Assembly: GCF_002608075.1 (NCBI RefSeq)
Contig: NZ_LAHA01000035.1
Location: 14,453 to 77,333, forward strand
Direction: 5' to 3'
Origin: Nostoc linckia z4
GTDB taxonomy: Bacteria; Cyanobacteriota; Cyanobacteriia; Cyanobacteriales; Nostocaceae
DNA: 62,881 nucleotides
Shown here: piece after piece, positions 3,746-36,333 of the stretch
Position numbering within the stretch: position 1 is the stretch's first letter
Layout: each line of letters starts with the position of its first letter
Program-made: the position numbers and the translations under genes
The notes under the pieces: generated by a model
Told to the model about the DNA's origin: nothing
What the model saw: the letters and a program-made list of their open reading frames with translations, nothing else
Database searches by the model: none

Positions 3746-3830
3746 ATTCTTCTTCATTTTCCCATCTCAAACCTAGCGAACCAGCAACCGCCGAAATTAA
3801 TCCGATCGCTTACTCATCTTTGTTTCTGTC

Positions 3831-6068: not shown

Positions 6069-6079
6069 GGAAAATTAAG

Positions 6080-9000
6080 ATGAACCCAGTTATTTCTAGT
6101 ATCTCTACACAGCAGTTGCCCGCGATCGCCAACCCCGTTATTTCTACAACTCAGTTGCAAAGCATCGTTAGCCGCGCTAGCAATCTGTTTGAACGACTCG
6201 ATCGCCAGATTTTCTCACCCTCCCCCGAAACTGATGAAAAACTCTTGCAATCGCGTCTTGAGACTTGGTGTCAGACAGTAGCAAAAGGAAATTTCGAGCA
6301 TTTTCAACAATACTTGCAATGGGATGGGCTGAATTTAGAAACAGCAAAAAGCGCGATCGCACCTGTATGTTTGCGCCACGATGCTCCCCTACCCAACTGG
6401 GCAAAGACACTCTCATCTGTTCTCAATCTTGCCTTTTCTCAGGCAGCAACAAATCTTGATGCAAAGACCTCACATCGCTTTTTGATTCCCCAGTCTCCCC
6501 TTCCCTTTGAAGAGATTCTCGCTCCATTTGTTTTATTTGCTCAACAAGAACTAATTGCTAGAACTGGCGAGTCTTACCAGAGATTAACCGATGAGGTTCA
6601 TGGTGTATTTGAACGCAGTTTGCTAGGTCAGTTAATTGACATCGCCACACAACCTTTACAGATAGCTTTTACCAGTTGGCGAGTCGCTCAACAATCCTCT
6701 TTTACTCGTCTACTGACACAGACACAAGAACTGCAAAGCCGCAACCTCTATATCCGCTTTGTTCGGGAAATGTTGCAGGGCAAACTAACTTCTTTTTTTG
6801 TAGAATATGCTGCTTTAGCAAGGTTACTGGCTACGGCAACCGAACTTTGGGTAGAATCGCAGTTAGAATTTCTGCATCACTTGGACGCAGACTGGTCAGA
6901 AATTGCAGAGAAATTTAACAACGGTTTACCTCTCGGTCAGGTGACAGCGGTGCAGCCTCTCCGATCTGACCCCCATCGCGGCAGACGCTCTGTAATTACA
7001 CTGAAAATCGAGCCAAATCTGCACTTAGTATACAAACCCAAGCATTTAGGCATTGAACAGGCGTACAATCAGTTTTTGGCTTGGTTAAACGAACAGGGTT
7101 CTCCTCTGCCTCTAAAAACCTTGCAAGTAATTAACCGCGATACTCACGGCTGGGTAGAGTTTGTCACCTCCCAAGCCTGTGAAGATACAGCCCAAATAGA
7201 ACGCCATTACCAACGGGCAGGGATGTTATTATGTTTGGTTTACGTGCTAGATGCTACCGATTGTCACTACGAAAATATCATTGCCTCTGGAGAATATCCA
7301 GTTCTAATTGATACCGAAGCTGTGATGCAGCATCGACCGAAAAACGAGTCATCAGCAAACCTACAGACTGCTCAACAACTCGCATTCCATCGCGTAGATA
7401 ATTCCGTGATGCGTACTGCCTTATTACCTGTCTGGCATCCAGCAGCCAATGGTAACTCCGGCTTTGATTTCAGTGGCTTGGGCAGCCACAATCAAGAGAC
7501 TAGGCATTATAAAGGACTCCAGTGGTCTGGCGTAAATACAGACCAGATGGCTTTAAATCAAAAGCTGCTGGCGATCGATCCATTTTTAGCTCACGTGCCA
7601 ACCTTAAATGGACAACCTGCCAATTTATCAGACTGGATAGAGGCAGTGGTGGAAGGATTTGAGCAGATGTATCGCTTCCTGCAAGAGAAACAAGACGTGT
7701 TACTCTCCCCAGATAGCCCGCTGCGGACAATGGCAAAACAGCTTGTGCGCTTTGTGTTTCGCCCCACAAACACTTATTTGAGAATTTTAAGCAAGCTCCG
7801 TAGTTCAGAGTACTTGCGGGATGGAGTTGACCGCAGTATTGGACTGGAAATCCTCAAGTTAACAGCAGCAGGCGCAACTGAAAAACCAAAATTCTGGTCT
7901 CTTCTCCAGTCTGAACGCCAACAAATGGAGCAGTTGGATGTTCCTTTTTTCTCAATTTATCCTGATACAGATGTGTTGGAGTTATCCCCAGATAGTCGCG
8001 TTGAGGGATTTTTCCAAGGTTCTAGCTTTGAATTAGTACTAGAGCGCATCAACAACCTGAGCAAATCTGATTTGGCGATACAAGTTGATTTTATCCGCAG
8101 CACTCTATATTTAAGAATGGTTCCCGGTCAAGAGATAGCTGCACCGGAAAAACCTGCCAATCAAACTTCTCTAAGCGTGCAGCAATCATCTGAGGCGATG
8201 CTGGATGAGTCAGATTTGGTTGCTGAGGTCATGGCAATTGCCCGCAGATTAAAAGAGCGAGCGATTTGCGCTCCTGATGGATCTGTAACTTGGCTTGCTC
8301 CTCAGTTTATCGCTCAACAACAGCGATTCCAATTTCAACCCACAGAACTGAGCCTTTTTGATGGCAAATTAGGAATTGCATTATTTCTGGCAGCGGTAGA
8401 GCATATTAAAAAAGATGGAGAGTTTCGAGAACTGTGTTTGGGAGCGTTGCAGGAGTTTCGTCAGGCGGTAGCCAAAATTGAACAGCCAAAAGGTGAATTC
8501 TCAAACCTGAATCTTGGCTTATCAACTGGACTAGGAGGATGGATTTACAGCCTGACTAAAATCGGTCAGTTTCTCAATGACGATCGCTTGCTTGCAGATG
8601 CTCTAAATTTGGCATACTCGATAGTACCAGAGGCAATTACTAGCGATCGCAGTTTGGATATCGCCGGCGGTACAGCAGGTACGCTTTTGAGTTTATTGGC
8701 ATTGTACCAGGTTGTTCGCGACCCAATTGTGCTAGAACGTGCCTGCCTGATTGGTCGTCATTTATTAGCCGAAAGTGTAATAACTTCTAAAGGCAGAGCT
8801 TGGAAAACGCTGGATGGTCGATTGTTAACGGGCTTTTCCCACGGAGCAGGCGGAATTGCCTACGCCCTGCTGAAACTGGCACAGGTGACGAATGATGCTG
8901 AGTTTCGGGCGGCTGCCGCAGAAGCGATCGCCTACGAACAAAGTATATTTTTACCAGAGGTAGGCAACTGGCCGGATCTCAGGGACTTTTCTAAATTTCT

Positions 9001-9448
9001 CCAAGCAAGTGCCAAATCCGAATCTTCTTCACTGATGTCTAGTTGGTGTCACGGTGCAACCGGTATCGGTTTAGCCCGCCTTGGCGGACTGCCAATGTTA
9101 GAAACTGAAGCAATCGATCGGGATATCCAAGTGGCAATCAAAACTACCCAAAAGCAACTCACCCAGAAACAAGGGATAGTAAACCAACTATGCTGCGGTC
9201 AGATGGGACAGATTGAATTTCTGCTATGTGCAGCCAGCCGATTGGGAAAACCAGATTTGTTGACAAATGCCAAAATTCATGCATTACAAATTGTGCAGCA
9301 AGCAAGACACAAAGGATATTATCTCGAACCCGCCCTACACTCAAGCGTATACGTTCCTGGTTTATTCCGTGGTGAGGTTGGTATTGGTTATACTTTGCTG
9401 CGCCTAACTCATCTGGAACAACTGCCTTCAATTCTTTTATGGGAATAG
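6080..9448 (+). CDS. lanM: Class II lanthipeptide synthetase-like protein (LanM-like: N-terminal dehydratase region plus C-terminal LanC-like cyclase)
   Basis: 1122 aa. The C-terminus has LanC-type zinc-ligand motifs (GFSHGAGGIAYALL, SWCHGATGIGLARL, LCCGQMGQIEFLL). Length and a long N-terminal domain fit LanM. Confidence 0.7.
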   Translation: MNPVISSISTQQLPAIANPVISTTQLQSIVSRASNLFERLDRQIFSPSPETDEKLLQSRLETWCQTVAKGNFEHFQQYLQWDGLNLETAKSAIAPVCLRHDAPLPNWAKTLSSVLNLAFSQAATNLDAKTSHRFLIPQSPLPFEEILAPFVLFAQQELIARTGESYQRLTDEVHGVFERSLLGQLIDIATQPLQIAFTSWRVAQQSSFTRLLTQTQELQSRNLYIRFVREMLQGKLTSFFVEYAALARLLATATELWVESQLEFLHHLDADWSEIAEKFNNGLPLGQVTAVQPLRSDPHRGRRSVITLKIEPNLHLVYKPKHLGIEQAYNQFLAWLNEQGSPLPLKTLQVINRDTHGWVEFVTSQACEDTAQIERHYQRAGMLLCLVYVLDATDCHYENIIASGEYPVLIDTEAVMQHRPKNESSANLQTAQQLAFHRVDNSVMRTALLPVWHPAANGNSGFDFSGLGSHNQETRHYKGLQWSGVNTDQMALNQKLLAIDPFLAHVPTLNGQPANLSDWIEAVVEGFEQMYRFLQEKQDVLLSPDSPLRTMAKQLVRFVFRPTNTYLRILSKLRSSEYLRDGVDRSIGLEILKLTAAGATEKPKFWSLLQSERQQMEQLDVPFFSIYPDTDVLELSPDSRVEGFFQGSSFELVLERINNLSKSDLAIQVDFIRSTLYLRMVPGQEIAAPEKPANQTSLSVQQSSEAMLDESDLVAEVMAIARRLKERAICAPDGSVTWLAPQFIAQQQRFQFQPTELSLFDGKLGIALFLAAVEHIKKDGEFRELCLGALQEFRQAVAKIEQPKGEFSNLNLGLSTGLGGWIYSLTKIGQFLNDDRLLADALNLAYSIVPEAITSDRSLDIAGGTAGTLLSLLALYQVVRDPIVLERACLIGRHLLAESVITSKGRAWKTLDGRLLTGFSHGAGGIAYALLKLAQVTNDAEFRAAAAEAIAYEQSIFLPEVGNWPDLRDFSKFLQASAKSESSSLMSSWCHGATGIGLARLGGLPMLETEAIDRDIQVAIKTTQKQLTQKQGIVNQLCCGQMGQIEFLLCAASRLGKPDLLTNAKIHALQIVQQARHKGYYLEPALHSSVYVPGLFRGEVGIGYTLLRLTHLEQLPSILLWE

Positions 9449-10793: not shown

Positions 10794-13700
10794 TTGAAAA
10801 TCAGATTTTACAGTAATTCAGTAATGGCTACCTACTTTGAGGGTGTGATGTCTAAAGTAAGTATGGGTGAAAACTGGTTTTTAAAGCTAGGGATGGTTGC
10901 GGTTAATGTCAGACATTTAGATTGGTTACTTACATTAGGAATGGCGATCGCATTTCACCCAAATATCGCCATTGCACAAATCACCCCAGATACAACATTA
11001 CCCAATAATAGCAATGTAAATACACTAAATAACATTACAAATATCACTGGTGGCACACAAGCAGGAACTAATCTGTTTCACAGTTTCAGCGAATTTTCTG
11101 TTCTCAAAGATACTACAGCTTACTTTAATAATCCTCCAGATATTCAAAATATTATTAGTCGAGTTACAGGTGGTTCGCAATCAAAAATAGACGGAATTTT
11201 GCGGACGAACGCTACAGCGAATTTATTTTTAATTAATCCAAACGGCATTATTTTTGGAGAAAATGCCCGCTTAGATATTGGTGGTTCATTTATTGCTAGC
11301 ACAGCAAGTAGCATCAAATTTGCTAATGGTTTTGAGTTCAGTGCTACGACTCCTGAATCTACACCTTTACTAACGATAAATACACCCATTGGCTTGCAAT
11401 ATGGAGTTAATCCAGCCACTATTGAGGTCAAAGGCGACGGTCAAGGTGTAAGGCTCACAGATGAATTGATTGATACAACAAATGCACTGCGAGTACCAGC
11501 CAATCAAACTTTAGCCTTGGTGGGTGGCGATATTTCCTTAGAGGGAGCAACGCTAAAGACAGCAGGGGGAAGAATAGAGTTAGGCAGTGTAGGGGATAAC
11601 AGTTTAGTTAGTCTCACACCGATAACTAAAGGTTTTGCCTTGAGCTACGATGGAGTGCAAAACTTTGGCAATATTCAACTATCAAAACTTTCAGCGGTAG
11701 ATGCCAGTGGCGCAGGTAGCGGTGACATCCAAATCCAGGGTCAGCGGGTTACCATAGCCGATGGTTCCCAGATAGAAGCAAGTACTCTGTTAGAAGAAAA
11801 AGGTGGGAATTTAGTAGTCAATGCTACTAATTCAGTAGAATTAATTGGTACATCTGCTGATGGTTACTTTTCCAGTGGCTTGCTTGCTTCTGCTTACTCA
11901 ACCGGGGATGCCGGAGACTTGACAATTAATACTCAAAATTTGCTTGTGCTAGATGGGGCGCAAGTAAGTACAGCCACATTTGGTACGGCTAAGGGCGCTT
12001 CTTTAACTGTCAATGCTCAAGATGTGCAACTGATTGGTACTACTGCCGATGGTCTTTTTCCCAGTGGCTTGTTTGTTTCTACTCAATCAACAGGAGATGG
12101 CGGAGACTTGACAATTAATACCCAAAATTTGCTGGCGATCGATGGGGCACAGGTAGCTGTATATACATCTGGTGCAGGTAAGGCGGGTTCTTTAACTGTC
12201 AATGCTAAAGATGTGCAAATGATTGGTACTGTCAATAGTCAGTTTCCCAGTGGCTTGTTCAATTATGCTTACTCAACCGGGGATGCCGGAGACTTGAGGA
12301 TTAATACCCAAAATTTGCTTGTGCGCGATGGAGCTAATGTTGCTACGCAGACATATAGTGCAGGTAAGACGGGTTCTATAACTGTCAATGCTGAAGATAT
12401 ACAACTAATTGGTAGGAGTCCAAATGGTGACTTTGCCAGTGACTTATCTGTTAACGCTGGTTTAGGGTCAACTGGGGATGCTGGAAATTTGACGATTAAT
12501 ACCCAACGTTTGCTCGTGCGGGATGGGGCATACGTTGATGCCAGCATATACGGTACAGGTAAGGGTGGTTCTTTAACTATCACTGCTAATGATATACAAC
12601 TGATTGGTACTTCTACTGATGGTCGCTTTAGGAGTGGCTTGTTTACTCAAGCTTATTCAGGAATAACTGGGGATGCCGGAAACTTGACAATTAATACCCA
12701 ACGTTTGCTTGTGCTAGATGGCGCACAAATAGATGCAGAGACATATGGTGCAGGTAAGGGGGGTTTTTTAACTATCACTGCTAAAGATGTACAACTGATT
12801 GGTACTTCTAGTAATGGTTACTTTCCTAGCGGCTTGTTGACTTCTACTCTCTCAACCGGAGATGCAGGAAACTTGAAAATTGATACCCAACAGTTGCTTG
12901 TGCGGGATGGGGCACTGATAAATACCAGTACATCGGGTACAGGTAAAGGAGGTTCTTTAACTGTCACTGCTAACGATGTGCAACTGATTGGTGAGTCTAT
13001 TGATGGTTATCTTAAGAGCCGTTTATTTACTACTGCTGCCGTTGGAACAACTGGCAATGCAGGAGATTTGACAATTAATACTCAATATTTGCTGGTACGG
13101 GATGGTGCATTTGTTGATGCCAGTACACAAGGTACAGGTAAAGGAGGTTCTTTAACTGTCAATGCTCAAGATGTGCAACTGATTGGTGTCTCTAGTGATG
13201 GGCGTTCTGGCAGTGGTTTGAATACATCTGCTCAGTCAGGGTCAACTGGCGATGCTGGAGACTTGACAATTAATACTCAACAGTTGCTCGTGGGCGATGG
13301 GGCACAGGTGGGTGCAACCACATCGGGCGTAGGCAAGGGAGGTTCTTTAACTGTCAATGCCAAAGATGTGCAATTGATTGGTACTACTGCTGATAGTCGC
13401 TTTCCCAGTGGCTTGTTTACTACTGCTTACACAGGAGCAACTGGGGATGCAAAATTTTTGACAATTAATACCCAACAATTGCTTGTACGTGATGGGGCAA
13501 AAATCAGCGCCGGAACACAGAGTGCAGGTAAAGGGGGTTCTTTAACTGTCAATGCTCAAGATGTGCAATTGATTGGTACGTCTGCTGATGGTAGTTCTAG
13601 TAGTGGCTTGTTTGCTTCTACTGAATCAACTGGGGATGCAGGAGATTTAAAGATTAGTAGCGATAAATTACTCGTTCAAGATGGGGCGATAATCACTGTC

Positions 13701-14528
13701 AGAAGCTCAGGTAAAGGAATTGCAGGGAATTTAAATATTGATGCTGACTTTATCCGTTTGAACAACAAGGCTTCTGTTGATGCTAATACCCAGGCTGTCA
13801 ACACTGACCCGACTCAAGAACAAGCTACTATTACTTTGCGCTCTCAAAATTTACTATTGCTTCGTAATAGTAAAATCACCACTAATGCTTCTGGAGAAAA
13901 TGTCATCGGTGGCAATATCAATATTAATACTGATTTTTTAGTTGCATCTGACAATAGTGATATCAGTGCTAATTCTGCTGACTTTCGAGGTGGTCAGGTG
14001 ATAATCAATGCCAAAGGAGTATTTGGTACTCAATTTCGTGATGCACTCACCCCAAATAGCGATATCACTGCTACAGGAGCTAATCAGCAGTTGAATGGTA
14101 CAGTGCAACTCAATACACCACAACAAGATCCCACAAATGGTTTAGAGGAATTGCCATTAGAAGTAGTGGATGCCTCACAATTAATTAACCAAAACTTCTG
14201 TGCCAAAAGAGGTAATAGTAGCTTCACCATCGTTGGACGTGGTGGTTTACCTTCTTCCCCCAACACTGTGCTTAACAATAATACAGTTTGGGAAGATTGG
14301 CGAGTCACTGCTGTGCCAACACAAGCAGCAGAGTACACCAGTAAAAGAGATATTGAGAAAACTTCAGCACTCAGTACAGAGATTGTAGAAGCTCAGGGGT
14401 GGGTTGTGAATGCTAAAGGTGAAGTGATACTGACAGCTGCTGCACCGACTCCAAGACCCCACAGCTTGAGGAATTTACTTCAAGGGGCGACAAGCGAGTT
14501 AAAGTGCTTGCTGTATAAGCAGCATTGA
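10794..14528 (+). CDS. Large exoprotein with a filamentous-hemagglutinin N-terminal (TPS) secretion domain and ~60-aa tandem repeats (TpsA-like)
   Basis: N-terminal TPS-domain signature (NLFHSFSEFSV...ANLFLINPNGIIFGENARLDIGGSFIAST). About ten repeats of GDAGDLTINTQ.LLV.DGA...GKGGSLTVNA.DVQLIGT. The start codon is uncertain; several in-frame Met/TTG candidates. Confidence 0.7.
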   Translation: MKIRFYSNSVMATYFEGVMSKVSMGENWFLKLGMVAVNVRHLDWLLTLGMAIAFHPNIAIAQITPDTTLPNNSNVNTLNNITNITGGTQAGTNLFHSFSEFSVLKDTTAYFNNPPDIQNIISRVTGGSQSKIDGILRTNATANLFLINPNGIIFGENARLDIGGSFIASTASSIKFANGFEFSATTPESTPLLTINTPIGLQYGVNPATIEVKGDGQGVRLTDELIDTTNALRVPANQTLALVGGDISLEGATLKTAGGRIELGSVGDNSLVSLTPITKGFALSYDGVQNFGNIQLSKLSAVDASGAGSGDIQIQGQRVTIADGSQIEASTLLEEKGGNLVVNATNSVELIGTSADGYFSSGLLASAYSTGDAGDLTINTQNLLVLDGAQVSTATFGTAKGASLTVNAQDVQLIGTTADGLFPSGLFVSTQSTGDGGDLTINTQNLLAIDGAQVAVYTSGAGKAGSLTVNAKDVQMIGTVNSQFPSGLFNYAYSTGDAGDLRINTQNLLVRDGANVATQTYSAGKTGSITVNAEDIQLIGRSPNGDFASDLSVNAGLGSTGDAGNLTINTQRLLVRDGAYVDASIYGTGKGGSLTITANDIQLIGTSTDGRFRSGLFTQAYSGITGDAGNLTINTQRLLVLDGAQIDAETYGAGKGGFLTITAKDVQLIGTSSNGYFPSGLLTSTLSTGDAGNLKIDTQQLLVRDGALINTSTSGTGKGGSLTVTANDVQLIGESIDGYLKSRLFTTAAVGTTGNAGDLTINTQYLLVRDGAFVDASTQGTGKGGSLTVNAQDVQLIGVSSDGRSGSGLNTSAQSGSTGDAGDLTINTQQLLVGDGAQVGATTSGVGKGGSLTVNAKDVQLIGTTADSRFPSGLFTTAYTGATGDAKFLTINTQQLLVRDGAKISAGTQSAGKGGSLTVNAQDVQLIGTSADGSSSSGLFASTESTGDAGDLKISSDKLLVQDGAIITVRSSGKGIAGNLNIDADFIRLNNKASVDANTQAVNTDPTQEQATITLRSQNLLLLRNSKITTNASGENVIGGNININTDFLVASDNSDISANSADFRGGQVIINAKGVFGTQFRDALTPNSDITATGANQQLNGTVQLNTPQQDPTNGLEELPLEVVDASQLINQNFCAKRGNSSFTIVGRGGLPSSPNTVLNNNTVWEDWRVTAVPTQAAEYTSKRDIEKTSALSTEIVEAQGWVVNAKGEVILTAAAPTPRPHSLRNLLQGATSELKCLLYKQH

Positions 14529-14593: not shown

Positions 14594-15322
14594 ATGATTC
14601 CCAGGAGCATTTTGAGAATGCAAGTTACAGTTGAACAACTCAAGCAAATACCACTGCTTTCTGGGCTGGAACTACAACAGCTTTTGGCATTACAAGCTCA
14701 TGCGATGGTGAAGCAATATTTCCCAGGAGAAATCATTTTACATGAGGGTGACCCTTTGCCTGGTCAACTTTTTGCCGTTCTAGGTGGCAGAATTGAAATC
14801 AAAAAAATAGCAGCTACGGGCAAAGAAACGATTCTGCGAACACTACCAGCCGGAGAAATATTTGCTGCAACGGCGCTGTTAGAAAATGGCTTTGCACCAG
14901 CAACGGTAGTAGCACAGCAAAACTGCAAAATTCTGATGCTGGAGCGTACTGCTTTACTAGCACTGATTCACCATACTCCAGAAGTGGCTTTGCGGATTAT
15001 TGCAGTTTTGACAGAGCGTCTCCAGCATCTACATCAAACGGTGCATGGATTAGTTTCAGAACGCGCAATTGTGCGTTTAGCGCAATACCTGAAGTTCTCA
15101 GCACTTACAGAAGGAACGGAAGTAACTGAACAGGGAGAATTGTTGCGATCGCGTTTACCATATTATCAAATTGCTCGTAGCATTGGAATTACCTATGAAG
15201 AGTGTGTAAGATTGTTCAAGCAAATCCATTCGAGCGTCCGCTATCATCGAGGCGGAAAAATTTTGGTATTAGACCGAGCGAAGTTAGATGCTCTCGCCCA
15301 AGGTGAATATACAATTATTTAA
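14594..15322 (+). CDS. Crp/Fnr-family transcriptional regulator (cNMP-binding domain plus C-terminal HTH)
   Basis: About 240 aa with a cNMP-binding fold pattern and a C-terminal HTH (YYQIARSIGITYEECVRLFKQ). Confidence 0.65.
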   Translation: MIPRSILRMQVTVEQLKQIPLLSGLELQQLLALQAHAMVKQYFPGEIILHEGDPLPGQLFAVLGGRIEIKKIAATGKETILRTLPAGEIFAATALLENGFAPATVVAQQNCKILMLERTALLALIHHTPEVALRIIAVLTERLQHLHQTVHGLVSERAIVRLAQYLKFSALTEGTEVTEQGELLRSRLPYYQIARSIGITYEECVRLFKQIHSSVRYHRGGKILVLDRAKLDALAQGEYTII

Positions 15323-15409
15323 ATAATTTTTAATTGACTATGTGTGAAAGTAATTCATACTTTCAATCAGCAACGCCTTTATTTTTCATGGTTGACTTAA
15401 TAATTTTAA

Positions 15410-16811
15410 GTTTCAATCCCTAATAGGGATTAAGAAAAATTGTAACTCTGCTTTATGTTGCCTTAACTCGCAGTAAATCAGGTTTCAATCCCTAATAGGG
15501 ATTAAGGAAAATTGTAACGCAGGCATTTATGGGGTTATCACGCCTAAATGATGTTTCAATCCCTAATAGGGATTAAGAAAAATTGTAACCTGTTGTAAAT
15601 ATTCAACGCTATTCTCCTCATAGTTTCAATCCCTAATAGGGATTAAGAAAAATTGTAACCGACTACCCTGTATCTGGAATTTTTATTGACTGGGGTTTCA
15701 ATCCCTAATAGGGATTAAGAAAAATTGTAACTCAGAAGATCCTTTACCACCGATTAATTTGAGTTGGTTTCAATCCCTAATAGGGATTAAGAAAAATTGT
15801 AACTACAACAAGTTTCTGTAAGGTGTCTTGCGTACTCTCGAAGTTTCAATCCCTAATAGGGATTAAGAAAAATTGTAACTCTAACAGTTGGTAGCACTCC
15901 ATACCATCCAGTTTCAATCCCTAATAGGGATTAAGAAAAATTGTAACCAAAGGGAAAGACGCGAGCAATCGCATGGATTCTGTTTCAATCCCTAATAGGG
16001 ATTAAGAAAAATTGTAACATTGGCGATGATTGGGAATATGCCTAGAATTCGTTTCAATCCCTAATAGGGATTAAGAAAAATTGTAACGCAAAGTCTAGCT
16101 GTTCATCTTCTGCAAAGTTTTCGTTTCAATCCCTAATAGGGATTAAGAAAAATTGTAACTTGTTAATCTAGTGGCGTCACGATACTTTTCTCTTGGTTTC
16201 AATCCCTAATAGGGATTAAGAAAAATTGTAACCCGGTCACTGCGGCACTTCCTAAAGTTGCTACACCAGTGTTTCAATCCCTAATAGGGATTAAGAAAAA
16301 TTGTAACTTAAACTACTCTGAGTGTAATAGTCAATATCTAAGTTTCAATCCCTAATAGGGATTAAGAAAAATTGTAACTCCTTGTCGGTTGCTGGGTTTT
16401 CACCTTTTCCTATGTTTCAATCCCTAATAGGGATTAAGAAAAATTGTAACTCTTAGCTGTAGACCCATGCGAGATAGATGAAGAGTTTCAATCCCTAATA
16501 GGGATTAAGAAAAATTGTAACCACCATTTAGCAGAATTTGAATCTCACGAATCACGTTTCAATCCCTAATAGGGATTAAGAAAAATTGTAACAGTTTTAT
16601 TTGGTCTTTTGATAGAGTTATGAACTCAGTTTCAATCCCTAATAGGGATTAAGAAAAATTGTAACAACTTAATTGCTTGTACTACAACTTCTTGAGGTAA
16701 CGTTTCAATCCCTAATAGGGATTAAGAAAAATTGTAACACCAGTCTGAGAAACGTAAGCTTGAGCAACTTCGATGTTTCAATCCCTAATAGGGATTAAGA
16801 AAAATTGTAAC
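15410..16811. CRISPR. CRISPR array: 20 repeats of 37 bp (GTTTCAATCCCTAATAGGGATTAAGAAAAATTGTAAC) and 19 spacers of 31-39 bp; no cas genes in the window
   Basis: Hand-counted repeats start at 15410, 15482, 15553, 15623, 15695, 15767, 15843, 15911, 15982, 16051, 16123, 16196, 16271, 16342, 16414, 16485, 16556, 16629, 16702 and 16775. Repeat 2 carries one substitution (AAGGAAAA), which suggests the low-coordinate end is distal to the leader. The reverse complement of the repeat ends in ATTGAAAC, like cyanobacterial type III / I-D repeat families, so transcription is probably on the minus strand from a leader near 16812-17040. Confidence 0.9.
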
Positions 16812-18303
16812 CGCCAAAGCCTTAGAGCTAATGTGTATTTGGTTTTCAAGGTTCAGTTGCGCGGATGGGTCAATTGTATCACTAGAAAATTTCAATTGAT
16901 TGACACTAAATCGCTGAAATGCTGTCTGGGCATGATGCGCGGGTGATTTTGATTTACTTTTGCCTGAAAGGTTTGTGCTGAGAGGAACACAGAGATTTTT
17001 GTCAAAGGTTGATTTTCTACACCTACCCATCCGCGCATTTGGATAAAAATTTTGTGGCGTTTGCTGGTCTTTTCACTTTTGACTAAGTAAGTCGGTGAAA
17101 TAAAACCAAACTATGCAAAGAAAAGTAAATAAGGCTCAAACTCTTTCTCCCCCTGCTCCCTGCTCCCTGCTCCCAGCAAGAACTGCCTTATCCCAACAAT
17201 AATTATTTACATCGGCCTACTTATAGCCGCCGATCTAACTTTACCTGAGGGTATGCAGTTACATGAAAAGCGATACAAAAGTTTGCAGCGAACAATTCAG
17301 AATATTTATTGCGATCGCCAAGTCATGTTAGATTAAATTTGATTGTTTCGTCAAAACACAAAATTCACAACAAATAACAATCAAAAAACTCCCTCATCTC
17401 CTTCATCCCTCTTATCTCTTCATCCTTGGAATGAAAAAAACGAGCTAAAAGTTAAATTTTTTGAAAAACATGTGCATCAACACACCCATTTTGACGAGGC
17501 TGTATGCCTTACCAGCTAAAAGTTAGAACCCTAATTGCATATCATTGCCAAAGTAAAAGTTAAAAAAATATGAATTGCATTTTTAGCCCAAAAAAAATGA
17601 TATGTTGGATACAGAATTGAATTTCGCACGTATCTGGAGTAGTACGACATATTCTGCTCCAGTTTTTCCCCCAAATTCCTTAGTCTTTGTTGCTTTTGAC
17701 GGGATTTGAGGAGAATTTGAGTACACATTTAAATAACTCAAACTGAGTTTCAAGTGAATTAAAATCCTTGCTGGAAGCGAGTTTTGGCTGAGTACAAAGA
17801 AATCCTGAACCCCCTTCTCTAAACACTAGAACCCCAATCCAAAAATACTAGAACCCCTACCCGAAAAAATTTTTTTTAATTCTTGTAAAGCTCAAAGAAT
17901 TAGAGTTTTTCCTATTTGAGTACAAGCTTAATAAATCCAATAAATTCTATCCTAGATAGACGCGTTCCCTGGGTCAAATACGGCTGATATAAATCTTATA
18001 TCGCCAATTACCTAACGCTCCTACACAAAAAGGCAGCGAAGAGTAAGTGGAGGGATGACATAGCACCATGCCCCAAATGAATAGAAGTCGTGGCTGCAAG
18101 CACAATTCTCCCAAGAACCGAACGTTGACACACACCAGCCCAAAATCACAGCCCAAAATCAAATATCTACCGCCTGCCCTACTTGATAACAAGTCGCCTA
18201 AACCTAAGCGTTTGCAGGCAGTGTACCAGCCACGACTTCAATTTCCGGGCATAGAGAGTAGCCACTGCATCTCCCACAGTGGCAGCCAAGTCCACCGATC
18301 CTT

Positions 18304-19749
18304 TTGCGAAATTCAATGACACCACCGTCTACACGACTCGTCACCTCCCCCGCCACGGACTCGACAACAACCCAAGCAAAATCCGGTGGTTGCGGCTGCG
18401 ATAGCAGTACCACCGTGGAAATGGACGAAAAACTCCAAGAACGCATTGCTCAACATCCCTGCTACAGCGAAGACGCCCATCACCACTACGCCCGGATGCA
18501 CGTTGCAGTTGCTCCTGCCTGTAACATTCAATGCAACTATTGTAACCGCAAATATGATTGTGCCAACGAAAGCCGTCCTGGAGTAGTTAGCGAGTTGCTG
18601 ACACCAGAAGAAGCAGCACACAAAACTCTGGTCATTGCAGGCAAGATTCCCCAAATGACAGTTTTGGGAATTGCTGGCCCTGGCGACCCACTAGCCAACC
18701 CAGAAAAGACTTTCCGCACATTTGAGTTAATTGCACAGCAAGCACCAGATATTAAACTTTGTTTATCTACTAACGGTTTAATGCTCTCGGAATACATCGA
18801 TCGCATTAAACAGTTAAATATAGATCACGTGACGATCACCATCAACATGGTAGATCCAGAAATCGGTGCTAAGATTTACCCCTGGGTTCACTACAAACGC
18901 AAACGTTACAGAGGCATCGAAGGGGCGAAACTGCTGCACGAAAAGCAGATGGAAGGATTGGAAGCCTTAAAAAAAGCTGATATCTTGTGTAAAGTCAACT
19001 CCGTAATGATTCCCGGAATTAACGACAAACACTTGATTGAAGTCAATCGCGTCATTCGTGAAAAAGGTGCATTCCTGCATAACATCATGCCCTTGATTTC
19101 TGCACCAGAACACGGCACACACTTTGGTTTAATCGGTCAACGCGGCCCCACACCCAAAGAACTTAAAGAACTCCAAGACAGCTGCTCCGGTAACATGAAA
19201 ATGATGCGTCACTGTCGCCAGTGCCGTGCCGATGCAGTGGGATTATTGGGAGAAGACCGCAGCCAGGAATTTACCAAAGATAAATTCTTGGAAATGGCCC
19301 CAGAATATAACCTAGAAATGCGCCAAGAAGTTCACGAAGGTATTGAGAAATTTAAACAAGAAATTAAAGCAGCCAAAGAAAAGGCACTAGCTGGCAAAAA
19401 AGTTGCCAACAACCCCAAAATCTTAGTTGCAGTAGCAACCAAAGGTGGCGGTTTAGTTAACCAGCACTTCGGTCACGCCAAAGAATTCCAAATTTACGAA
19501 GTAGATGGTAATGAAGTTCGCTTTATCAGTCATCGCAAAATCGATCAATATTGCCAAGGTGGATACGGCGAAGAAGCTTCCTTTGAGCATATTATGAAAG
19601 CGATCGCAGATTGCAAAGCAGTTTTAGTTTCCAAAATTGGTAACTGCCCCAAAGAAAAATTGCAAGAAGCTGGTATACAGACTGTTGAAGCTTACGACGT
19701 AATTGAGAAGGTTGCTTTAGAGTTTTACGAACAATGGAGTAAGGAATAG
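18304..19749 (+). CDS. nifB: Nitrogenase FeMo-cofactor biosynthesis radical-SAM protein NifB (with a C-terminal NifX-like domain)
   Basis: CxxxCxxC radical-SAM motif ([17 protein letters not shown]). Length 481 aa. First gene of the conserved nifB-fdxN-nifS-nifU order. Confidence 0.9.
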
Positions 19750-24853: not shown

Positions 24854-26216
24854 ATGACTCCTCCAGAAAATCAAAACATCATCGAAGAAAGAAAAGAACT
24901 AATTAAGGAAGTACTAAGCGCTTATCCCGAAAAAGCAGCTAAAAAACGGGAAAAGCACCTAAACGTATACGAAGAAGGTAAGAGCGATTGCGGCGTTAAA
25001 TCTAACATCAAATCTCTTCCTGGTGTAATGACCGCTCGTGGTTGTGCTTACGCCGGTTCAAAAGGTGTGGTTTGGGGCCCTATTAAGGACATGATCCACA
25101 TCAGCCACGGGCCTGTAGGTTGCGGTTACTGGTCTTGGTCTGGTCGTCGTAACTACTACATTGGTACTACAGGTGTAGACACCTTTGGTACCATGCACTT
25201 CACCTCTGACTTCCAAGAACGGGATATCGTTTTCGGTGGTGACAAAAAACTCACCAAACTCATCCAAGAATTGGAAGTTCTTTTCCCTCTCAACCGTGGT
25301 GTTTCCATTCAATCTGAATGTCCCATCGGTCTAATCGGGGATGACATCGAAGCAGTAGCTCGGAACACATCCAAAGAAATTGGCAAGCCAGTTGTTCCCG
25401 TTCGTTGCGAAGGTTTCCGCGGTGTTTCTCAGTCCTTGGGTCACCACATCGCTAACGACATGGTGCGTGACTGGGTGTTCACCAGAGCCGACAAAGAGAA
25501 AAAAGAAGGCAAATTACAATTCGAGTCTACTCCTTACGACGTAGCAATCATCGGTGACTACAACATCGGTGGTGATGCTTGGGCTAGCCGGATTCTGTTA
25601 GAAGAACTGGGCTTGCGCGTAGTTGCTCAGTGGTCTGGTGATGGTACAATCAACGAAATGTTGATGACACCGAACGTGAAGATGAACTTGATTCACTGCT
25701 ACCGTTCGATGAACTACATCAGCCGTCACATGGAAGAAGCTTATGGTATACCCTGGTTGGAGTACAATTTCTTCGGCCCCACCAAGATTGCTGAATCCTT
25801 ACGGGAAATCGCTTCTAAATTTGACTCCAAGATCCAAGAAAACGCTGAGAAGATCATCGCTAAGTATCAGCCCACAATGGATGCGATCGTTAACAAGTAT
25901 CGCCCCCGTTTGGAAGGTAAGACCGTTGCGATGATGGTTGGTGGTTTGCGTCCTCGCCACGTTGTACCCGCTTTCCAAGATTTGGGTATGAAGATGGTCG
26001 GTACAGGTTATGAGTTCGCTCACAACGACGACTACAAACGTACCACCCACTACATCGAAAACGGCACCATCGTTTACGATGACGTAACTGCTTATGAATT
26101 CGAGGAATTTGTAAAAGCACTCAAGCCAGACTTAATTGCTTCTGGTGTGAAAGAGAAGTACGTCTTCCAAAAGATGGGTCTACCCTTCCGTCAAATGCAC
26201 TCCTGGGATTACTCCG
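24854..26216 (+). CDS. nifD: Nitrogenase MoFe protein alpha subunit NifD, 5' segment (interrupted by the nifD element at the GGATTACTCCG repeat)
   Basis: NifD N-terminal sequence ([21 protein letters not shown]...). After ...SWDYS the reading frame runs into element sequence and ends in an aberrant tail ([30 protein letters not shown]). The true C-terminus is encoded at 58716..58855. Confidence 0.9.
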
Positions 26217-26591
26217 AACCTAGCGATGCCTTCTCTTTCAGAGACGCTACCGCGAACGGCGGGCTTCGCCAACGCACTTACAAGTCAATTAAATCAATAT
26301 TTTTTTAGCTATCGGAGAAAAAAGAGCCTATTTCTAGCCTAAATCCAAATTACAAGCTTATTCATTAACAATCTGTTTTAATACTTCAGACAGTATAACT
26401 CTTATGTAATCTGGTTTTTAGATTTGAAAAGCATTTTGCTCCAAGAAAAACTGTTAAATAAAAGACTATTTTAGATGACGATTTTTTAGATTAAATGGCT
26501 AAATTTTTTTGTGTAGCACAAAGACGCAAATAAGAATGCAAAAATTCTGAATTTTTCTAAAGTGTAAGGTAATACTATATGCTGGTCTAAC

Positions 26592-26924
26592 TTAAACTCG
26601 CAATGCATCACGCATAAAAATCACTAATTTTGGAAGTGCCTGAAAAAATTCCTTTTCGTTATTGAATTGGTGAGTTTCAAGAAAGACATTGTTACTTGTA
26701 GATATTTCAATAATTTCCATTACACAAGCTCCTGACTCCCAAACTGTTACTCTACCAAGATGTAATAAACTCTCAAAATCAAGACACATAGCTGAATTAT
26801 CACTAGGTTGACAGTAGGTCAGCGTGTATTTCAGCTGATAAGCAGCAAAACGTGACTTTAATCCTGATTGAAATCTGTCAAAACCTCGTTCTGAGATTAG
26901 TTTTGTTAGTGGATTGATACTCAT
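26592..26924 (-). CDS. Hypothetical protein
   Basis: ORF only; no recognisable motifs. First gene inside the element's left border. Confidence 0.3.
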   Translation of the reverse strand: MSINPLTKLISERGFDRFQSGLKSRFAAYQLKYTLTYCQPSDNSAMCLDFESLLHLGRVTVWESGACVMEIIEISTSNNVFLETHQFNNEKEFFQALPKLVIFMRDALRV

Positions 26925-27014
26925 TTATGATTATAGAAGTTTTCATTTGCTGTGACTATACATTAGTAGCTTCAAGTTAGAATATGATACTTTACACCAA
27001 TTTTTACTTTATCC

Positions 27015-27677
27015 ATGACAATTTTGATCGTAGAAACTCTATGCTCCGAAGCTGCTATATTTTCAGCAACCGAGTCTTTACATCCAGAACCTTTGCTATA
27101 TGGTGTGACTGATGGTAAGGCTGTCGGGACATACTTGGAACAAAAATTTAGACTTTATCTCAAACAGCGATATGAATTTGTAGAGGGTAATTCTGCAAGC
27201 AGTATTGACTTTCCAGGGTTACTTGTAGATGTGAAGGTAACAAGCATTCGACAACCACAATCATCATGTCCTTTCAAATCTGCACGTCAAAAGATATTTG
27301 GGCTTGGGTATTCGCTGCTGATTTTCGTCTACGATAAAACAGACAATAGTACGAACCGCACAGCAACCCTAAATATTTTGCATACTATTTATGTAAGCGC
27401 CGAAAGAACCGCAGATTTTCAGATGACTCGTGCAATTCGCAATATCATAGCAAACGAAGGTAATAAAGATGATTTAATTGCCTTCATGCTCGATCGCAAT
27501 TTACCCGTTGATGAAATTGAGGCAAGCAACATTGCCGATGAAATTATGAGCAATCCACCGGTACAGGGTTTTCTGACTATTTCCAACGCTTTGCAATGGC
27601 GACTCCAGTATGGAAGAGTAATAGAACGTGCTGGTCAAGAAGATGGTATAATTCCTGTTTACAAAATTAATCAATGA
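27015..27677 (+). CDS. Putative PD-(D/E)xK restriction endonuclease
   Basis: IDFPGLLVDVKV fits a D...(D/E)xK nuclease core. Its stop overlaps the start of the downstream methyltransferase-like gene (ATGA), which indicates translational coupling. Confidence 0.4.
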   Translation: MTILIVETLCSEAAIFSATESLHPEPLLYGVTDGKAVGTYLEQKFRLYLKQRYEFVEGNSASSIDFPGLLVDVKVTSIRQPQSSCPFKSARQKIFGLGYSLLIFVYDKTDNSTNRTATLNILHTIYVSAERTADFQMTRAIRNIIANEGNKDDLIAFMLDRNLPVDEIEASNIADEIMSNPPVQGFLTISNALQWRLQYGRVIERAGQEDGIIPVYKINQ

Positions 27678-29116: not shown

Positions 29117-29240
29117 TTATCTAACAAAATTAGATGAAATCATCGGGTAAGAAAGGGTGGCTTCGAGAACATAGATAAAGGCGATCGCAACTGAGAAATT
29201 GCTGCATTCTCACGGTGTACGATCGCCATCAATCGCTAAA

Positions 29241-30779: not shown

Positions 30780-31287
30780 AGATAATTTGACCAGATTTAA
30801 TCAAAACATTTATAACCTCGCTGGAAACTAAATACCACCTATAATTCTGGAGTTGACAAACCTATAAATAAAGGTTGAAGGATTTGTTTGAGGTTTTGTA
30901 GTATTATATTACATTTTACTCTGCCGGCGCAGGTGTTTATAGTTTGGGATGCGGGCAAAAGCTTCTCCAGAACTGGATTAAGATTGCTGTTAGTTTTAAT
31001 AGACGGCTCAAAGGCAATCTAGAAAAACAGAACCGCGCTCAAATATGCCGATCGCTTTGCCAATCTAGAATTTCCGAAGTCAAAGCAGATATAGGAAAAC
31101 GAAGGTACATACTCAAGTTGGGGAGAGATTACAGTTGCGCTGGCTCCTTTACTGTTACGAACACCTGCATGACAGAGTACAAAAAACAAAAAGTTTTTTC
31201 ACTGGGTTTTTTTGAATCGCCCAATACATCTAGCTGTGACACTGCCTTGTCCCTAACAAGGTGCCCGTACCCAGGGCAGGGGTTTTT

Positions 31288-31363
31288 TGGCTGAAAGTAT
31301 AGGAATCGAACCTATAATGAATCGGCGATACACCGATCGCTCTACCAAATGAGCTAACTTTCA
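31288..31363 (-). tRNA. tRNA-like element (76 nt, encoded CCA) with a non-canonical anticodon loop (UGUAUCG); probably a pseudo-tRNA
   Basis: Folds by eye into a cloverleaf: acceptor TGAAAGT/ACTTTCA, D arm GCTC-ATTTGGTA-GAGC, T arm ATAGG-TTCGATT-CCTAT. It lacks U33 and a purine at position 37. Confidence 0.35.
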
Positions 31364-31533
31364 TGGTGAAATAGTTGGAAGCATTAAGCGGTATACGCTA
31401 TTACCAGAGGTTGGCGCACCAGTCGGGTATACAGAACCCAAACTATAGCTTTGTGGCTTTGTCGCTATCTCGCTTCAAATTTAGCACAGGAAAAAAATAT
31501 TACAAGGGAACGGGGAAATCGAGGAATTATCGG

Positions 31534-33044: not shown

Positions 33045-33045
33045 T

Positions 33046-36223: not shown

Positions 36224-36333
36224 AGAATTAATCTTAATTTGAATTCAAAGCTTACGATCGCCTACCTCACGACTATCGTAACTGGTCATTACATTGCAAG
36301 AATATAGATAAACCTAAATTTAGTTAGCAAAAG

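What the first reader, a model, noticed from the sequence alone, without database searches (positions are those of the whole stretch)
15410..17040. CRISPR array with no cas genes in the window, between a Crp-family regulator and nifB
Twenty 37-bp repeats and nineteen unique spacers. The sequence-variant repeat lies at the low-coordinate end. The reverse complement of the repeat ends in ATTGAAAC, an 8-nt 5'-handle-like tag seen in cyanobacterial type III / I-D repeat families. Together these suggest minus-strand transcription from a leader around 16812-17040, where a 12-bp inverted repeat gcgcggatgggt / acccatccgcgc brackets about 170 bp. No cas gene lies within at least 9 kb upstream or any distance downstream in this window, so the array must be serviced in trans, probably by a type III system, or be a remnant.
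Basis: partly seen in the sequence, partly recalled or inferred. Interest (0 to 1): 0.5.

Follow-up and report, generated by a model that had tools for sequence, protein, structure and literature searches.

The report
Stand-alone type I-D CRISPR array
This is a real 20-repeat CRISPR array with its own complete leader, sitting alone beside the nitrogen-fixation genes of a Nostoc cyanobacterium; it is most likely run by a type I-D Cas system encoded elsewhere in the genome, an arrangement that is common and already described in these bacteria.

Summary
There are 20 copies of a 37-bp repeat at 15410-16811, 19 unique spacers and no cas gene anywhere in the 62.9-kb window.

Transcription is on the minus strand and the leader is 16812-17040.

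The type assignment is not. Across 72 arrays that share the repeat's hairpin and handle, the only recurrent neighbouring cas genes are type I-D. They always lie on the leader side and read towards the array. The window's roughly 228-nt leader is homologous along its whole length to leaders that follow cas2 in bona fide I-D loci.

Sister Nostoc linckia assemblies carry a complete I-D operon on another contig. Its own array has the same hairpin core and the same ATTGAAAC handle.

The array is not a remnant. Two close relatives hold the same Crp-array-leader-nifB locus, with flanks 99% identical, yet share none of its spacers.

Type III is not supported. The type III-B array on a Nostoc plasmid uses a different repeat.

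Stand-alone I-D arrays are already documented in Anabaena PCC 7120, so this is an ordinary new member of a known kind.

The parts
15410..16811 (-). CRISPR array: 20 repeats of 37 bp and 19 unique spacers of 31-39 nt. The crRNA-sense repeat is GTTACAATTTTTCTTAATCCCTATTAGGGATTGAAAC.
   Evidence: Rfam CRISPR-DR5 matches all 20 copies on the minus strand. The minus-sense RNA folds into a 9-bp hairpin that ends 3 nt before the 3' end, -10 kcal/mol.
15482..15518 (-). The only variant repeat (+ strand position 26, A to G). It is the second copy from the trailer end.
15447..15481 (-). Spacer 1, at the trailer end. It matches a UvrD-like helicase gene on Nostoc plasmids: 33/35 in UHCC 0926 pn2 and 32/35 in NIES-3756 pNOS3756_1. 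The crRNA would be antisense to the helicase mRNA. The 5' flank is ATT or ACT, not GTN.
16160..16195 (-). Spacer 11. It overlaps by 17 nt, on the opposite strand, a spacer of the cas-adjacent I-D array in GCA_006365015.1 (L084 9264-9295). The joined sequence places 5'-GTC next to both protospacers.
16812..17040 (-). Leader, about 228 nt. It is homologous over its whole length to the leaders of type I-D loci and of other stand-alone arrays of this repeat family.
16841..16870 (-). Proximal conserved leader block. On the minus strand it reads ACCCATCCGCGCAACTGAACCTTGAAAACC. It contains one arm of the 13-bp inverted repeat (16858-16870).
   Evidence: GAACCTTGAAAAC is at 90% or more in the alignment of 57 leaders. 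Its position is fixed at 43 and 56 nt from the first repeat.
16873..16881 (-). Extended -10-like motif TGATACAAT (minus strand), a candidate array promoter. The inferred transcription start is near 16866, about 55 nt before the first repeat.
   Evidence: TGnTAnnAT starts exactly 70 nt from the first repeat in 39 of 57 leaders (conservation). The promoter function is an inference. The consensus scan did not report it.
16936..16945 (-). Middle leader block, a degenerate third copy of the motif: + strand TGCGCGGGTG, minus strand CACCCGCGCA.
   Evidence: CCGCGC lies about 131 nt from the first repeat in 43 of 57 leaders.
17023..17040 (-). Distal leader block AATGCGCGGATGGGTAG (minus strand), the second arm of the inverted repeat. 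It corresponds to the last codons and stop codon of cas2 (..ECADG*) in cas-adjacent I-D loci, so it is a cas2 3'-end relic and/or the distal leader motif.

Best explanation
This is a stand-alone ('orphan') leader-plus-array module of the Nostocales type I-D CRISPR family.

Proposed mechanism, with each step marked:
- The array is transcribed on the minus strand from a promoter inside its own leader. The direction is shown by homology. The promoter position is inferred.
- The pre-crRNA folds one hairpin per repeat. A type I-D Cas6 encoded elsewhere in the genome cuts at the 3' base of the stem. This would give crRNAs with an 8-nt AUUGAAAC 5' handle (inferred).
- These crRNAs load into the I-D Cascade (Cas10d, Csc2, Csc1) and direct Cas3' against DNA of plasmids and phages (inferred).
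- New spacers are inserted at the leader-proximal repeat (16775-16811) by the same system's Cas1-Cas2-Cas4, which recognises the conserved leader. This is inferred from complete spacer turnover at the orthologous locus in close relatives.
- The module originated from a cas2-leader-array unit broken inside the 3' end of cas2 (inferred from the cas2 relic).
For: 1. Repeat family. All 20 repeats match Rfam CRISPR-DR5 on the minus strand. The repeat is 29/37 identical to the cyanophage N-1 repeat. Reimann et al. (bioRxiv 10.1101/2020.04.14.041012) showed that repeat is cut preferentially by the Anabaena I-D Cas6, Alr1566.

2. Gene neighbourhood of the family. A scan with the 25-nt core found 72 loci. 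The only gene clusters recurring beside them that are cas genes are Cas1d (TIGR04093, 429 bits), Cas4, Cas6, Csc1 and Csc2. Twelve of the 14 cas1d copies, and all cas4, cas6, csc1 and csc2 copies, lie on the high-coordinate side on the opposite strand; this is the I-D operon order, with the operon's last gene next to the leader (cas2 lies there in the annotated loci L002 and L083). L002 shows a fully annotated I-D operon in that arrangement.

3. Leader. Window 16812-17040 aligns end to end with the leaders that follow cas2 in the I-D loci of N. linckia z, UHCC 0302, DedSLP01 and Dolichospermum NIES-80. It carries every conserved block of a 57-leader alignment at the canonical distances.

4. 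A I-D system in the same lineage. Window 13799-34692 is 100% identical to LAHG01000027.1 of GCA_002608345.1. An identical Cas6 (P0121, named Nostoc linckia z18) was read on 16 contigs (14 in the cluster table). In L083 it sits in cas3'-cas10d-csc2-csc1-cas6-cas4-cas1-cas2-leader-array. That array's repeat shares the last 20 nt with the window's, which covers the 5-bp hairpin core, the loop and the 8-nt handle, and is 29/37 identical overall. Assembly GCA_006365015.1 holds both this operon (L084) and the orthologous stand-alone array (L089).

5. Activity. L088 and L089 carry the same Crp-array-leader(-nifB) locus. Their trailer flanks are 396/400 and 398/400 identical and the L088 leader is 220/229 identical. 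None of their 27 and 5 spacers matches any of the window's 19.

6. PAM. Spacer 11 and an overlapping spacer from a I-D array each imply 5'-GTC, which fits the I-D GTN PAM. One of three plasmid matches to an L088 spacer also has GTC.

7. Precedent. Stand-alone arrays are the majority in this family, 25 of 34 leader ends with at least 2 kb of flank. In Anabaena 7120 they are documented as transcribed and processed in trans.
Against: - No cas gene could be examined on the same contig as the window, and the complete source genome was not available. Co-occurrence with the I-D operon is shown for sister assemblies and for GCA_006365015.1, not for the exact source record.
- The cas-adjacent I-D repeat in the lineage differs from the window's repeat at 8 of 37 positions. 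One of these weakens an outer stem pair, and three of the first five nucleotides differ at the leader-proximal end. Cross-recognition is therefore inferred from the Anabaena experiments, not shown here.
- The plasmid matches to spacer 1 are flanked by ATT or ACT rather than GTN. Two of three matches to an L088 spacer have CTC. All of these matches are imperfect.
- Expression, processing and interference were not tested.
- The 8-nt handle ATTGAAAC is also typical of type III systems. In Anabaena the III-D Cas6 cleaves I-D-type repeats weakly.
Confidence: 0.8

Rival explanations
1. The array is serviced by a type III system (III-B or III-D) elsewhere in the genome. Its crRNAs would guide RNA-activated interference and need no PAM.
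For: - The ATTGAAAC handle is shared with many type III repeats (general knowledge).
- The plasmid matches to spacer 1 have no GTN flank, and the crRNA would be antisense to the helicase mRNA.
- In Anabaena 7120 the III-D Cas6 Alr1482 can cleave I-D-type repeats, though less well.
- Nostoc plasmids do carry type III-B systems.
Against: - No type III gene recurs next to any of the 72 arrays with this core. A PADLOC census of 135 flanking ORFs showed no cas family among the recurrent hits.
- The type III-B array on the PCC 7524 plasmid has an unrelated repeat with a different stem and an ATGGAAAC handle.
- The same plasmid carries a window-like array as a separate stand-alone unit.
- The window's leader is a I-D leader that includes a cas2 relic.
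- Anabaena III-D repeats have a C:A mismatch in the stem. The window's stem is perfect.
Confidence: 0.1
2. The array is an inert remnant. It was left behind when a cas operon was lost or rearranged, and it no longer acquires spacers or is used.
For: - No cas gene lies within 15 kb on one side or 46 kb on the other.
- Only 8 codons of cas2 remain at the leader end.
- One of the 20 repeats carries a substitution.
Against: - Nineteen of the 20 repeats are identical, and the leader keeps all conserved blocks at the canonical spacing.
- The orthologous locus in relatives with 99% identical flanks has completely different spacers. Decay cannot produce that.
- The lineage retains a complete I-D operon with a dynamic array of its own. 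L083 and L084 share none of their 6 and 26 spacers.
Confidence: 0.05
3. The spacer differences between strains come from wholesale replacement of the array, by recombination or gene conversion with another array or with incoming DNA. They would then not reflect step-by-step acquisition at this locus, so the array need not be a target of trans-adaptation.
For: - Even the trailer-end spacers differ between the window, L088 and L089.
- The leader is slightly more diverged than the flanks, 220/229 against 396/400 and 398/400.
- Genomes in this family hold many arrays with near-identical repeats and leaders that could recombine.
Against: - No donor array with matching spacers was found among 1152 spacers from the fetched loci.
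- Replacement would still leave a functional leader-array unit.
- Polarised acquisition combined with internal deletions gives the same pattern over time.
Confidence: 0.15

Closest known systems
Cas-gene-free arrays CR_4, CR_6/7, CR_8 and CR_11 of Anabaena sp. PCC 7120 ('group 2', type I-D; Hou et al. 2019; Reimann et al. 2020, bioRxiv 10.1101/2020.04.14.041012)
   Same: - Nostocales chromosome, with stand-alone repeat-spacer arrays far from the cas genes.
- Repeat with one short perfect hairpin near the 3' end.
- Assigned to a single remote I-D cassette through Cas6.
[quoted passage not shown]
   Different: The assignment here rests on comparative genomics only, with no cleavage assay, mutant or RNA data. 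The repeat sequences of the Anabaena arrays were not available to me, so identity to them was not measured. The link goes through the phage N-1 repeat.
CRISPR array of cyanophage N-1 (Chenard et al. 2016, PMC4916379)
   Same: A cas-less array of the same repeat family. GTTTCAATCCCTGATAGGGATTATTTAGCGTTGTAAG is 29/37 identical to the window's repeat, and the hairpin and handle differ by one loop base. It is cleaved preferentially by the I-D Cas6 Alr1566.
   Different: It is carried by a phage, has 5 repeats, and diverges in the 5' half of the crRNA-sense repeat.
Type I-D leader of Synechocystis sp. PCC 6803 CRISPR1 and relatives (Kieper et al. 2019, PMC6607411)
   Same: - A long leader (202-220 bp there, about 228 bp here) that starts directly after cas2.
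- Conserved blocks about 50 bp from the first repeat, in the middle, and at the repeat-distal end.
- The proximal and distal motifs are reverse complements of each other in both cases: GCCAAA and TTGGC there, ACCCATCCGCGCA and TGCGCGGATGGGT here.
   Different: The motif sequences differ. Their effect on spacer acquisition was measured in Synechocystis and is untested here. Here the distal motif overlaps the cas2 stop codon.
Stand-alone array on Nostoc sp. PCC 7524 plasmid pNOS7524.01 (NC_019677.1, 11.0-13.9 kb)
   Same: The leader is among the most similar found: 75% identity over positions 7-245, with both arms of the inverted repeat at the same distances. The first 25 nt of the repeat are identical. 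No cas gene is adjacent.
   Different: It is plasmid-borne, has 38 repeats, and differs at 5 of the last 12 repeat positions. The plasmid's own cas genes are type III-B with a different repeat.

Membership tests
CRISPR array (generic) | Three or more near-identical direct repeats of 23-50 bp, regularly interspaced by unique spacers of similar length | tested here: met
   20 repeats of 37 bp and 19 unique spacers of 31-39 nt. There are 20 matches against 0 expected by chance.
CRISPR array (generic) | A conserved non-coding leader on one side only, shared with other arrays of the same repeat family | tested here: met
   16812-17040 aligns with the leaders of about 50 other arrays. The trailer side (15323-15409) has no such homology outside the orthologous loci.
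Rfam CRISPR-DR5 (RF01318) | Score at or above the curated gathering threshold | tested here: met
   48.0-49.6 bits against a gathering score of 40, for all 20 copies, on the minus strand.
Type I-D-associated repeat and leader family of Nostocales | Homologous arrays lie directly downstream of cas2 in I-D operons (cas10d-csc2-csc1-cas6-cas4-cas1-cas2) | tested here: met
   9 of 34 leader ends with at least 2 kb of flank carry cas1d (plus cas4, cas6, csc1 and csc2 where the flank reaches). They always lie on the leader side and read towards the array. L002 and L083 are annotated I-D operons.
Type I-D-associated repeat and leader family of Nostocales | I-D cas genes adjacent to this particular array | tested here: not met
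   There is no cas gene in the 62.9-kb window. The array is therefore a stand-alone member serviced in trans, not a complete I-D locus.
Type I-D-associated repeat and leader family of Nostocales | Leader homologous to the leaders that follow cas2 in I-D loci | tested here: met
   The end-to-end alignment has all conserved blocks at 225, 131, 70, 56 and 43 nt from the first repeat. A cas2 3'-end relic is present.
Type I-D-associated repeat and leader family of Nostocales | 5'-GTN PAM next to protospacers | tested here: inconclusive
   GTC is inferred for spacer 11 and for the overlapping I-D spacer. GTC appears in 1 of 3 plasmid matches to an L088 spacer, with CTC in the other two. The imperfect plasmid matches to spacer 1 have ATT or ACT.
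Type I-D-associated repeat and leader family of Nostocales | Repeat RNA cleaved by the I-D Cas6, giving an 8-nt 5' handle | not testable with these tools
   Only indirect evidence exists. The hairpin core, loop and handle are identical to those of the cognate I-D array in the lineage. The related N-1 repeat is cleaved by Alr1566.
Type III-associated array | Homologous arrays adjacent to cas10, csm or cmr genes, or repeat similarity to a type III array | tested here: not met
   No recurrent type III gene lies in the flanks of the 72 loci. The PCC 7524 type III-B array has an unrelated repeat.
Orphan (cas-less) array | No cas genes within the same locus, while a compatible cas cassette exists elsewhere in the genome | tested here: met
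   The window has no cas genes. A I-D cassette occurs on a separate 134-kb contig in a sister assembly (L083), and in the same assembly as the orthologous array in GCA_006365015.1 (L084 and L089). Same-record proof for the window's own genome was not obtainable.

The most novel reading that the evidence does not exclude
The unit that disperses in Nostocales genomes may be a defined 'cas2-tail + leader + array' module. Its distal boundary motif, TGCGCGGATGGGTAG, doubles as the last Cas2 codons and stop. Together with its inverted copy about 170 bp away it would form a bipartite DNA signal. That signal would let one Cas1-Cas2-Cas4 complex, or a host factor, find and load many scattered arrays in trans. 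The complete spacer turnover at this cas-less locus between strains with 99% identical flanks would then be direct natural evidence for efficient trans-adaptation at detached arrays.
Probability: 0.3. Interest if true: 0.4.

Novelty: new member of a known kind. Interest (0 to 1): 0.2.

Why it matters
For genome annotation, it corrects the type call from III to I-D and fixes the strand and the leader. It also shows that this cas-less array should be counted as part of the strain's active immune repertoire.

More generally, the locus is a clean natural example of an array that keeps turning over its spacers far from any cas gene. The comparison also shows that the 'inverted repeat' in these leaders is a conserved pair of motifs, and that the outer one is the fossil end of cas2. 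That gives a concrete hypothesis for how arrays fragment and stay functional in multicellular cyanobacteria, a question Reimann et al. left open.

None of this changes the picture of CRISPR biology. The position next to nifB appears incidental.

Tried and rejected
- The exact repeat was scanned against 185,579 species-representative genomes and gave 0 hits. The source species' representative either lacks the array or did not assemble it. L006 shows a sister assembly whose contig starts just after the array.
- Exact-protein look-ups for the Crp-like and LanM-like proteins found nothing, probably because the gene callers chose different starts. NifH did work.
- The first Cas6 look-up, P0014, led to an unrelated FACHB Nostoc.
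- The 19 window spacers, and then 83 spacers from the orthologous and cognate arrays, were searched against phage genomes. No spacer-level match was found. The phage hits are similarity to the repeat, not the spacers.
- A 23-nt junction pattern from the joined spacer-11 target gave 0 hits in IMG/VR.
- The sigma-70 consensus scan found no promoter in the leader above background. The extended -10 candidate comes from conservation only.
- I considered that the Crp-family gene might be a CRISPR-linked regulator. No Crp-like gene recurs next to the other 72 arrays, so the adjacency looks incidental.
- I considered a link to nifB regulation. The relative L005 has xisH/xisI instead of the array upstream of nifB, and homology with the window starts only at 17248. 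The array is therefore not part of the conserved nif upstream region.
- I considered a CAST or type V-K array. The repeat, the leader and the neighbours do not fit.
- The papers by Hou et al. 2019 and the published version of Reimann et al. 2020 are not held in the library. I used the bioRxiv version.
Full report

Yes. Window 15410-16811 holds 20 copies of the 37-bp repeat GTTTCAATCCCTAATAGGGATTAAGAAAAATTGTAAC (+ strand), with start-to-start spacing of 68-76 nt. A search allowing three mismatches returns exactly these 20 copies, and none appear in 100 shuffles. Nineteen copies are identical. The one variant (A to G at position 26) is the second copy, 15482-15518, not the terminal one.

The 19 spacers are 31-39 nt long, all different, and have no other copy in the window. 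The reverse complement of the repeat ends in ATTGAAAC. The inverted repeat in the flank is a perfect 13-mer: TGCGCGGATGGGT at 16858-16870 and ACCCATCCGCGCA at 17025-17037. The arms are 154 nt apart, and these are the only two copies in the window at up to 2 mismatches.

**2. Surroundings**

Upstream on the + strand lie the following genes:
- an RTX-repeat protein
- a PhyH dioxygenase
- a cyclase-like protein
- a class II lanthipeptide synthetase (LanM type)
- a PIN toxin
- a 1244-aa TPS-domain exoprotein
- a Crp-family regulator (14594-15322)

Downstream lie nifB (18304-19749), fdxN, nifS, nifU, a globin, nifH and nifD. nifD is interrupted by a roughly 32.5-kb element. Beyond the element come nifK and a second nitrogenase component-1-type ORF (Oxidored_nitro; nifE is my guess).

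No cas gene occurs anywhere in the window. Pfam scans of the large ORFs find none. tblastn with eight type I-D Cas proteins plus Csx18 and Cas1 gives nothing better than E = 0.07.

**3. Source**

Window 13799-34692 is 100% identical to contig LAHG01000027.1 of GCA_002608345.1. That assembly belongs to a group of about 13 nearly identical assemblies. Proteins from this group are named 'Nostoc linckia z18' and similar in NCBI. The organism name for this particular assembly is my inference.

In a sister assembly the contig begins just after the array (L006). This may explain why an exact-repeat scan of species-representative genomes found nothing.

**4. Strand and family**

All 20 repeats pass the Rfam CRISPR-DR5 gathering score on the minus strand. 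As minus-sense RNA the repeat forms a 9-bp hairpin that ends 3 nt before the 3' end, at -10 kcal/mol. That is the usual geometry of a Cas6 substrate leaving an 8-nt handle.

I scanned the species-representative genomes with the 25-nt core GTTTCAATCCCTAATAGGGATTAAG, which covers the hairpin and handle. It returned 72 loci, mostly in Nostocales, with up to ten in one genome. I then clustered the ORFs in their flanks. The only cas families that recur are Cas1d (TIGR04093), Cas4, Cas6, Csc1 and Csc2. These are all type I-D. Twelve of the 14 cas1d copies, and all cas4, cas6, csc1 and csc2 copies, lie on the high-coordinate side on the opposite strand, so the operon reads towards the array. L002 from Nostoc UHCC 0302 shows the fully annotated arrangement.

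This result fixes the orientation: minus-strand transcription, with the leader on the high-coordinate side. It also fixes the type as I-D.

Of 34 leader ends with at least 2 kb of flank, only 9 have cas1d. Stand-alone arrays are therefore the rule in this family.

**5. The leader**

The 228 nt after the last repeat (16812-17040) align end to end with the sequence between cas2 and the first repeat of genuine I-D loci. They also align with the leaders of other stand-alone arrays.

In an alignment of 57 distinct leaders the conserved blocks are, in crRNA sense:
- AATGCGCGGATGGGTAGGTGT, about 225 nt from the first repeat
- CACCCGCGCACCTTACACAG, about 131 nt from it
- a TGnTAnnAT motif, exactly 70 nt from it in 39 of 57 leaders
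- CCCATCCGCGCAAC.GAACCTTGAAAAC, at 56-30 nt from it

The window carries all of these at the canonical distances.

The distal block is also the last codons and stop of cas2 (..ECADG-TAG) in cas-adjacent loci. Stand-alone leaders retain cas2 C-terminal relics of varying length, and all of them end 214-215 nt from the first repeat. L069 keeps residues 62-95 (E = 3e-10). The window keeps only about 8 codons, which would not be significant on their own.

This points to an origin from cas2-leader-array units broken inside cas2. I infer that the TGnTAnnAT motif (window 16873-16881, minus strand) is an extended -10 promoter. The simple consensus scan did not flag it.

The architecture parallels the Synechocystis I-D leader. 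That leader is 202-220 bp, has three motifs, and its proximal and distal motifs are reverse complements of each other. There the motifs raise spacer acquisition (Kieper et al. 2019, PMC6607411).

**6. A compatible Cas system in the lineage**

I searched with a I-D Cas6 from a close relative and reached P0121 ('Cas6 [Nostoc linckia z18]'), which was read on 16 contigs (14 in the cluster table).

In L083 (GCA_002608135.1, a 134-kb contig) it sits in cas3'-(inserted genes)-cas10d-csc2-csc1-cas6-cas4-cas1-cas2-leader-array. That array has 7 repeats of ATTGAAATTTCATCTACTCCCTATTAGGGATTGAAAC. The repeat shares the last 20 nt with the window's crRNA-sense repeat, covering the hairpin core, the loop and the handle, and is 29/37 identical overall.

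The operon lies at least 50 kb from either end of its contig and shares nothing with the window apart from short dispersed repeats. The array is therefore genuinely remote from the operon.

One assembly, GCA_006365015.1, contains both this operon (L084) and the ortholog of the window's array (L089).

In Anabaena 7120 the I-D Cas6 Alr1566 processes several stand-alone arrays; their repeats are 73-84% identical to the phage N-1 repeat, which it also cuts. The N-1 repeat is 29/37 identical to the window's. Trans-processing of this array is thus a well-founded inference, not a demonstration.

**7. Remnant or active?**

A metagenome scan with the exact repeat found the same locus in two relatives. 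L088 has Crp-array-leader-nifB-...-nifD with 98-99% identity outside the array. L089 has TPS-Crp-array.

The 400 nt on the trailer side are 396/400 and 398/400 identical to the window, and the L088 leader is 220/229 identical. Yet none of their 27 and 5 spacers matches any of the window's 19. The cas-adjacent arrays of L083 and L084 also share no spacers.

Such complete turnover is incompatible with an inert relic. It implies acquisition and loss at this cas-less locus. Less likely, it reflects wholesale replacement of the array by recombination.

**8. Targets and PAM**

- Spacer 1 matches a UvrD-like helicase gene on two Nostoc plasmids, 33/35 and 32/35. The 5' flank in crRNA sense is ATT or ACT.
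- Spacer 11 overlaps by 17 nt, on the opposite strand, a spacer of the I-D array in L084. The joined sequence puts 5'-GTC next to both protospacers. That fits the GTN PAM known for I-D from the literature.
- A spacer of L088 matches a plasmid gene next to an integrase. The flank is GTC in one of three imperfect matches and CTC in the other two.
- No phage match was found.

The PAM evidence leans towards I-D but remains thin.

**9. Type III rival**

The PCC 7524 plasmid carries a stand-alone array with one of the closest leaders (75% identity). It also carries a csx18-cas1-cas2-array-cmr2-6 type III-B locus. The type III array there has a different repeat, ATTCCCACTCGCTGGGGATATTAATTGAATGGAAAC.

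No type III gene recurs beside the 72 arrays. Weak cross-use by a type III system cannot be excluded, but nothing favours it.

**10. Verdict**

This is a genuine, intact and evolutionarily active stand-alone CRISPR array of the Nostocales type I-D family. The phenomenon of fragmented arrays serviced in trans is already described for Anabaena 7120, so this is a new member of a known kind and of low to moderate interest.

The modest new points are three: the cas2-tail relic at the leader's outer edge, the conserved inverted motif pair, and the complete spacer turnover at an orthologous cas-less locus.

Noticed in passing
window 26206-58715: nifD (24854-26308) is interrupted by a roughly 32.5-kb element. 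It is bounded by identical 11-bp direct repeats GGATTACTCCG at 26206 and 58705, the sequence I recall as the XisA site of the Anabaena 7120 nifD element. A XisA-like integrase gene lies at 57050-58351 (-), and nifK follows at 59138. Relatives L004 and L005 carry different cargo after nifD.
   Followed up: partly
window 26592-33121 and 47552-56225: The cargo of the nifD element looks defence-rich. It includes TriTu (26592-26924), NspV (27015-27677), a methyltransferase-like 480-aa protein, a Band_7 protein and a 350-aa reverse transcriptase (31534-32586, -). The reverse transcriptase is flanked by tRNA-Ile(TAT) and two tRNA-Met genes. There is also a patatin-like phospholipase (47552-49222) and a STAND NTPase with an EAD4 effector-associated domain (54528-56225).
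   Followed up: no
window 2651-9448: A possible lanthipeptide cluster: a PhyH dioxygenase, a 745-aa protein with a weak squalene-hopene-cyclase C-terminal hit, and an 1122-aa LanM-type synthetase (DUF4135 + LANC_like). I did not look for a precursor peptide.
   Followed up: no
window 10794-14528 (repeats 11844-13643): A 1244-aa TPS-domain (two-partner secretion) exoprotein. Its gene contains 9.4 tandem copies of a 195-nt unit at 73% match. The ortholog in L089 is only about 90-96% identical here and shows repeat-number or register differences.
   Followed up: no
window 36326-36554; 52121-52294: Two intergenic tandem repeats that are not CRISPR: 3.7 copies of a 62-nt unit at 97% match, and 8.7 copies of the 20-nt unit AAAACTTGATTTACAAGTCC at 96% match. 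Many heptamer runs (for example 19811, 34644, 61213) resemble cyanobacterial STRR repeats.
   Followed up: no
L005 2890-3635 against window 17248: In a relative with 90-98% identical nif genes, xisH and xisI lie upstream of nifB where the window has TPS-Crp-array-leader. Homology with the window begins at 17248. The roughly 200 nt between the leader's end (17040) and 17248 are unassigned.
   Followed up: partly
L083 2061-4638: In the N. linckia type I-D operon, four unrelated genes sit between cas3' and cas10d: DUF433, a DUF1016/YhcG nuclease-like gene, and an NTP_transf_2/HepT toxin-antitoxin pair.
   Followed up: no
L090 3760-8700 (NC_019677.1 about 27.7-32.7 kb): The Nostoc PCC 7524 plasmid has a type III-B locus laid out as csx18-cas1-cas2, then an array of about 65 repeats, then cmr2-cmr6. 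The array therefore sits between the adaptation and effector genes. Its repeat is ATTCCCACTCGCTGGGGATATTAATTGAATGGAAAC.
   Followed up: partly
L088 2403-2439 and L089 6375-6554: Repeat variants differ between the orthologous arrays. L088 has one mid-array variant repeat. In L089 the three repeats nearest the contig end carry the same A-to-G change seen in the window's second repeat. The variant's position therefore does not mark the trailer end.
   Followed up: partly
phage hits H16-H21 (Microcystis phages Ma-LMM01, MaMV): The array query also hit repeat regions in Microcystis phages, annotated as a '56 bp repeat unit' in Ma-LMM01, at about 71-74% identity. I did not check whether this is a CRISPR-like array or a chance resemblance.
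   Followed up: no
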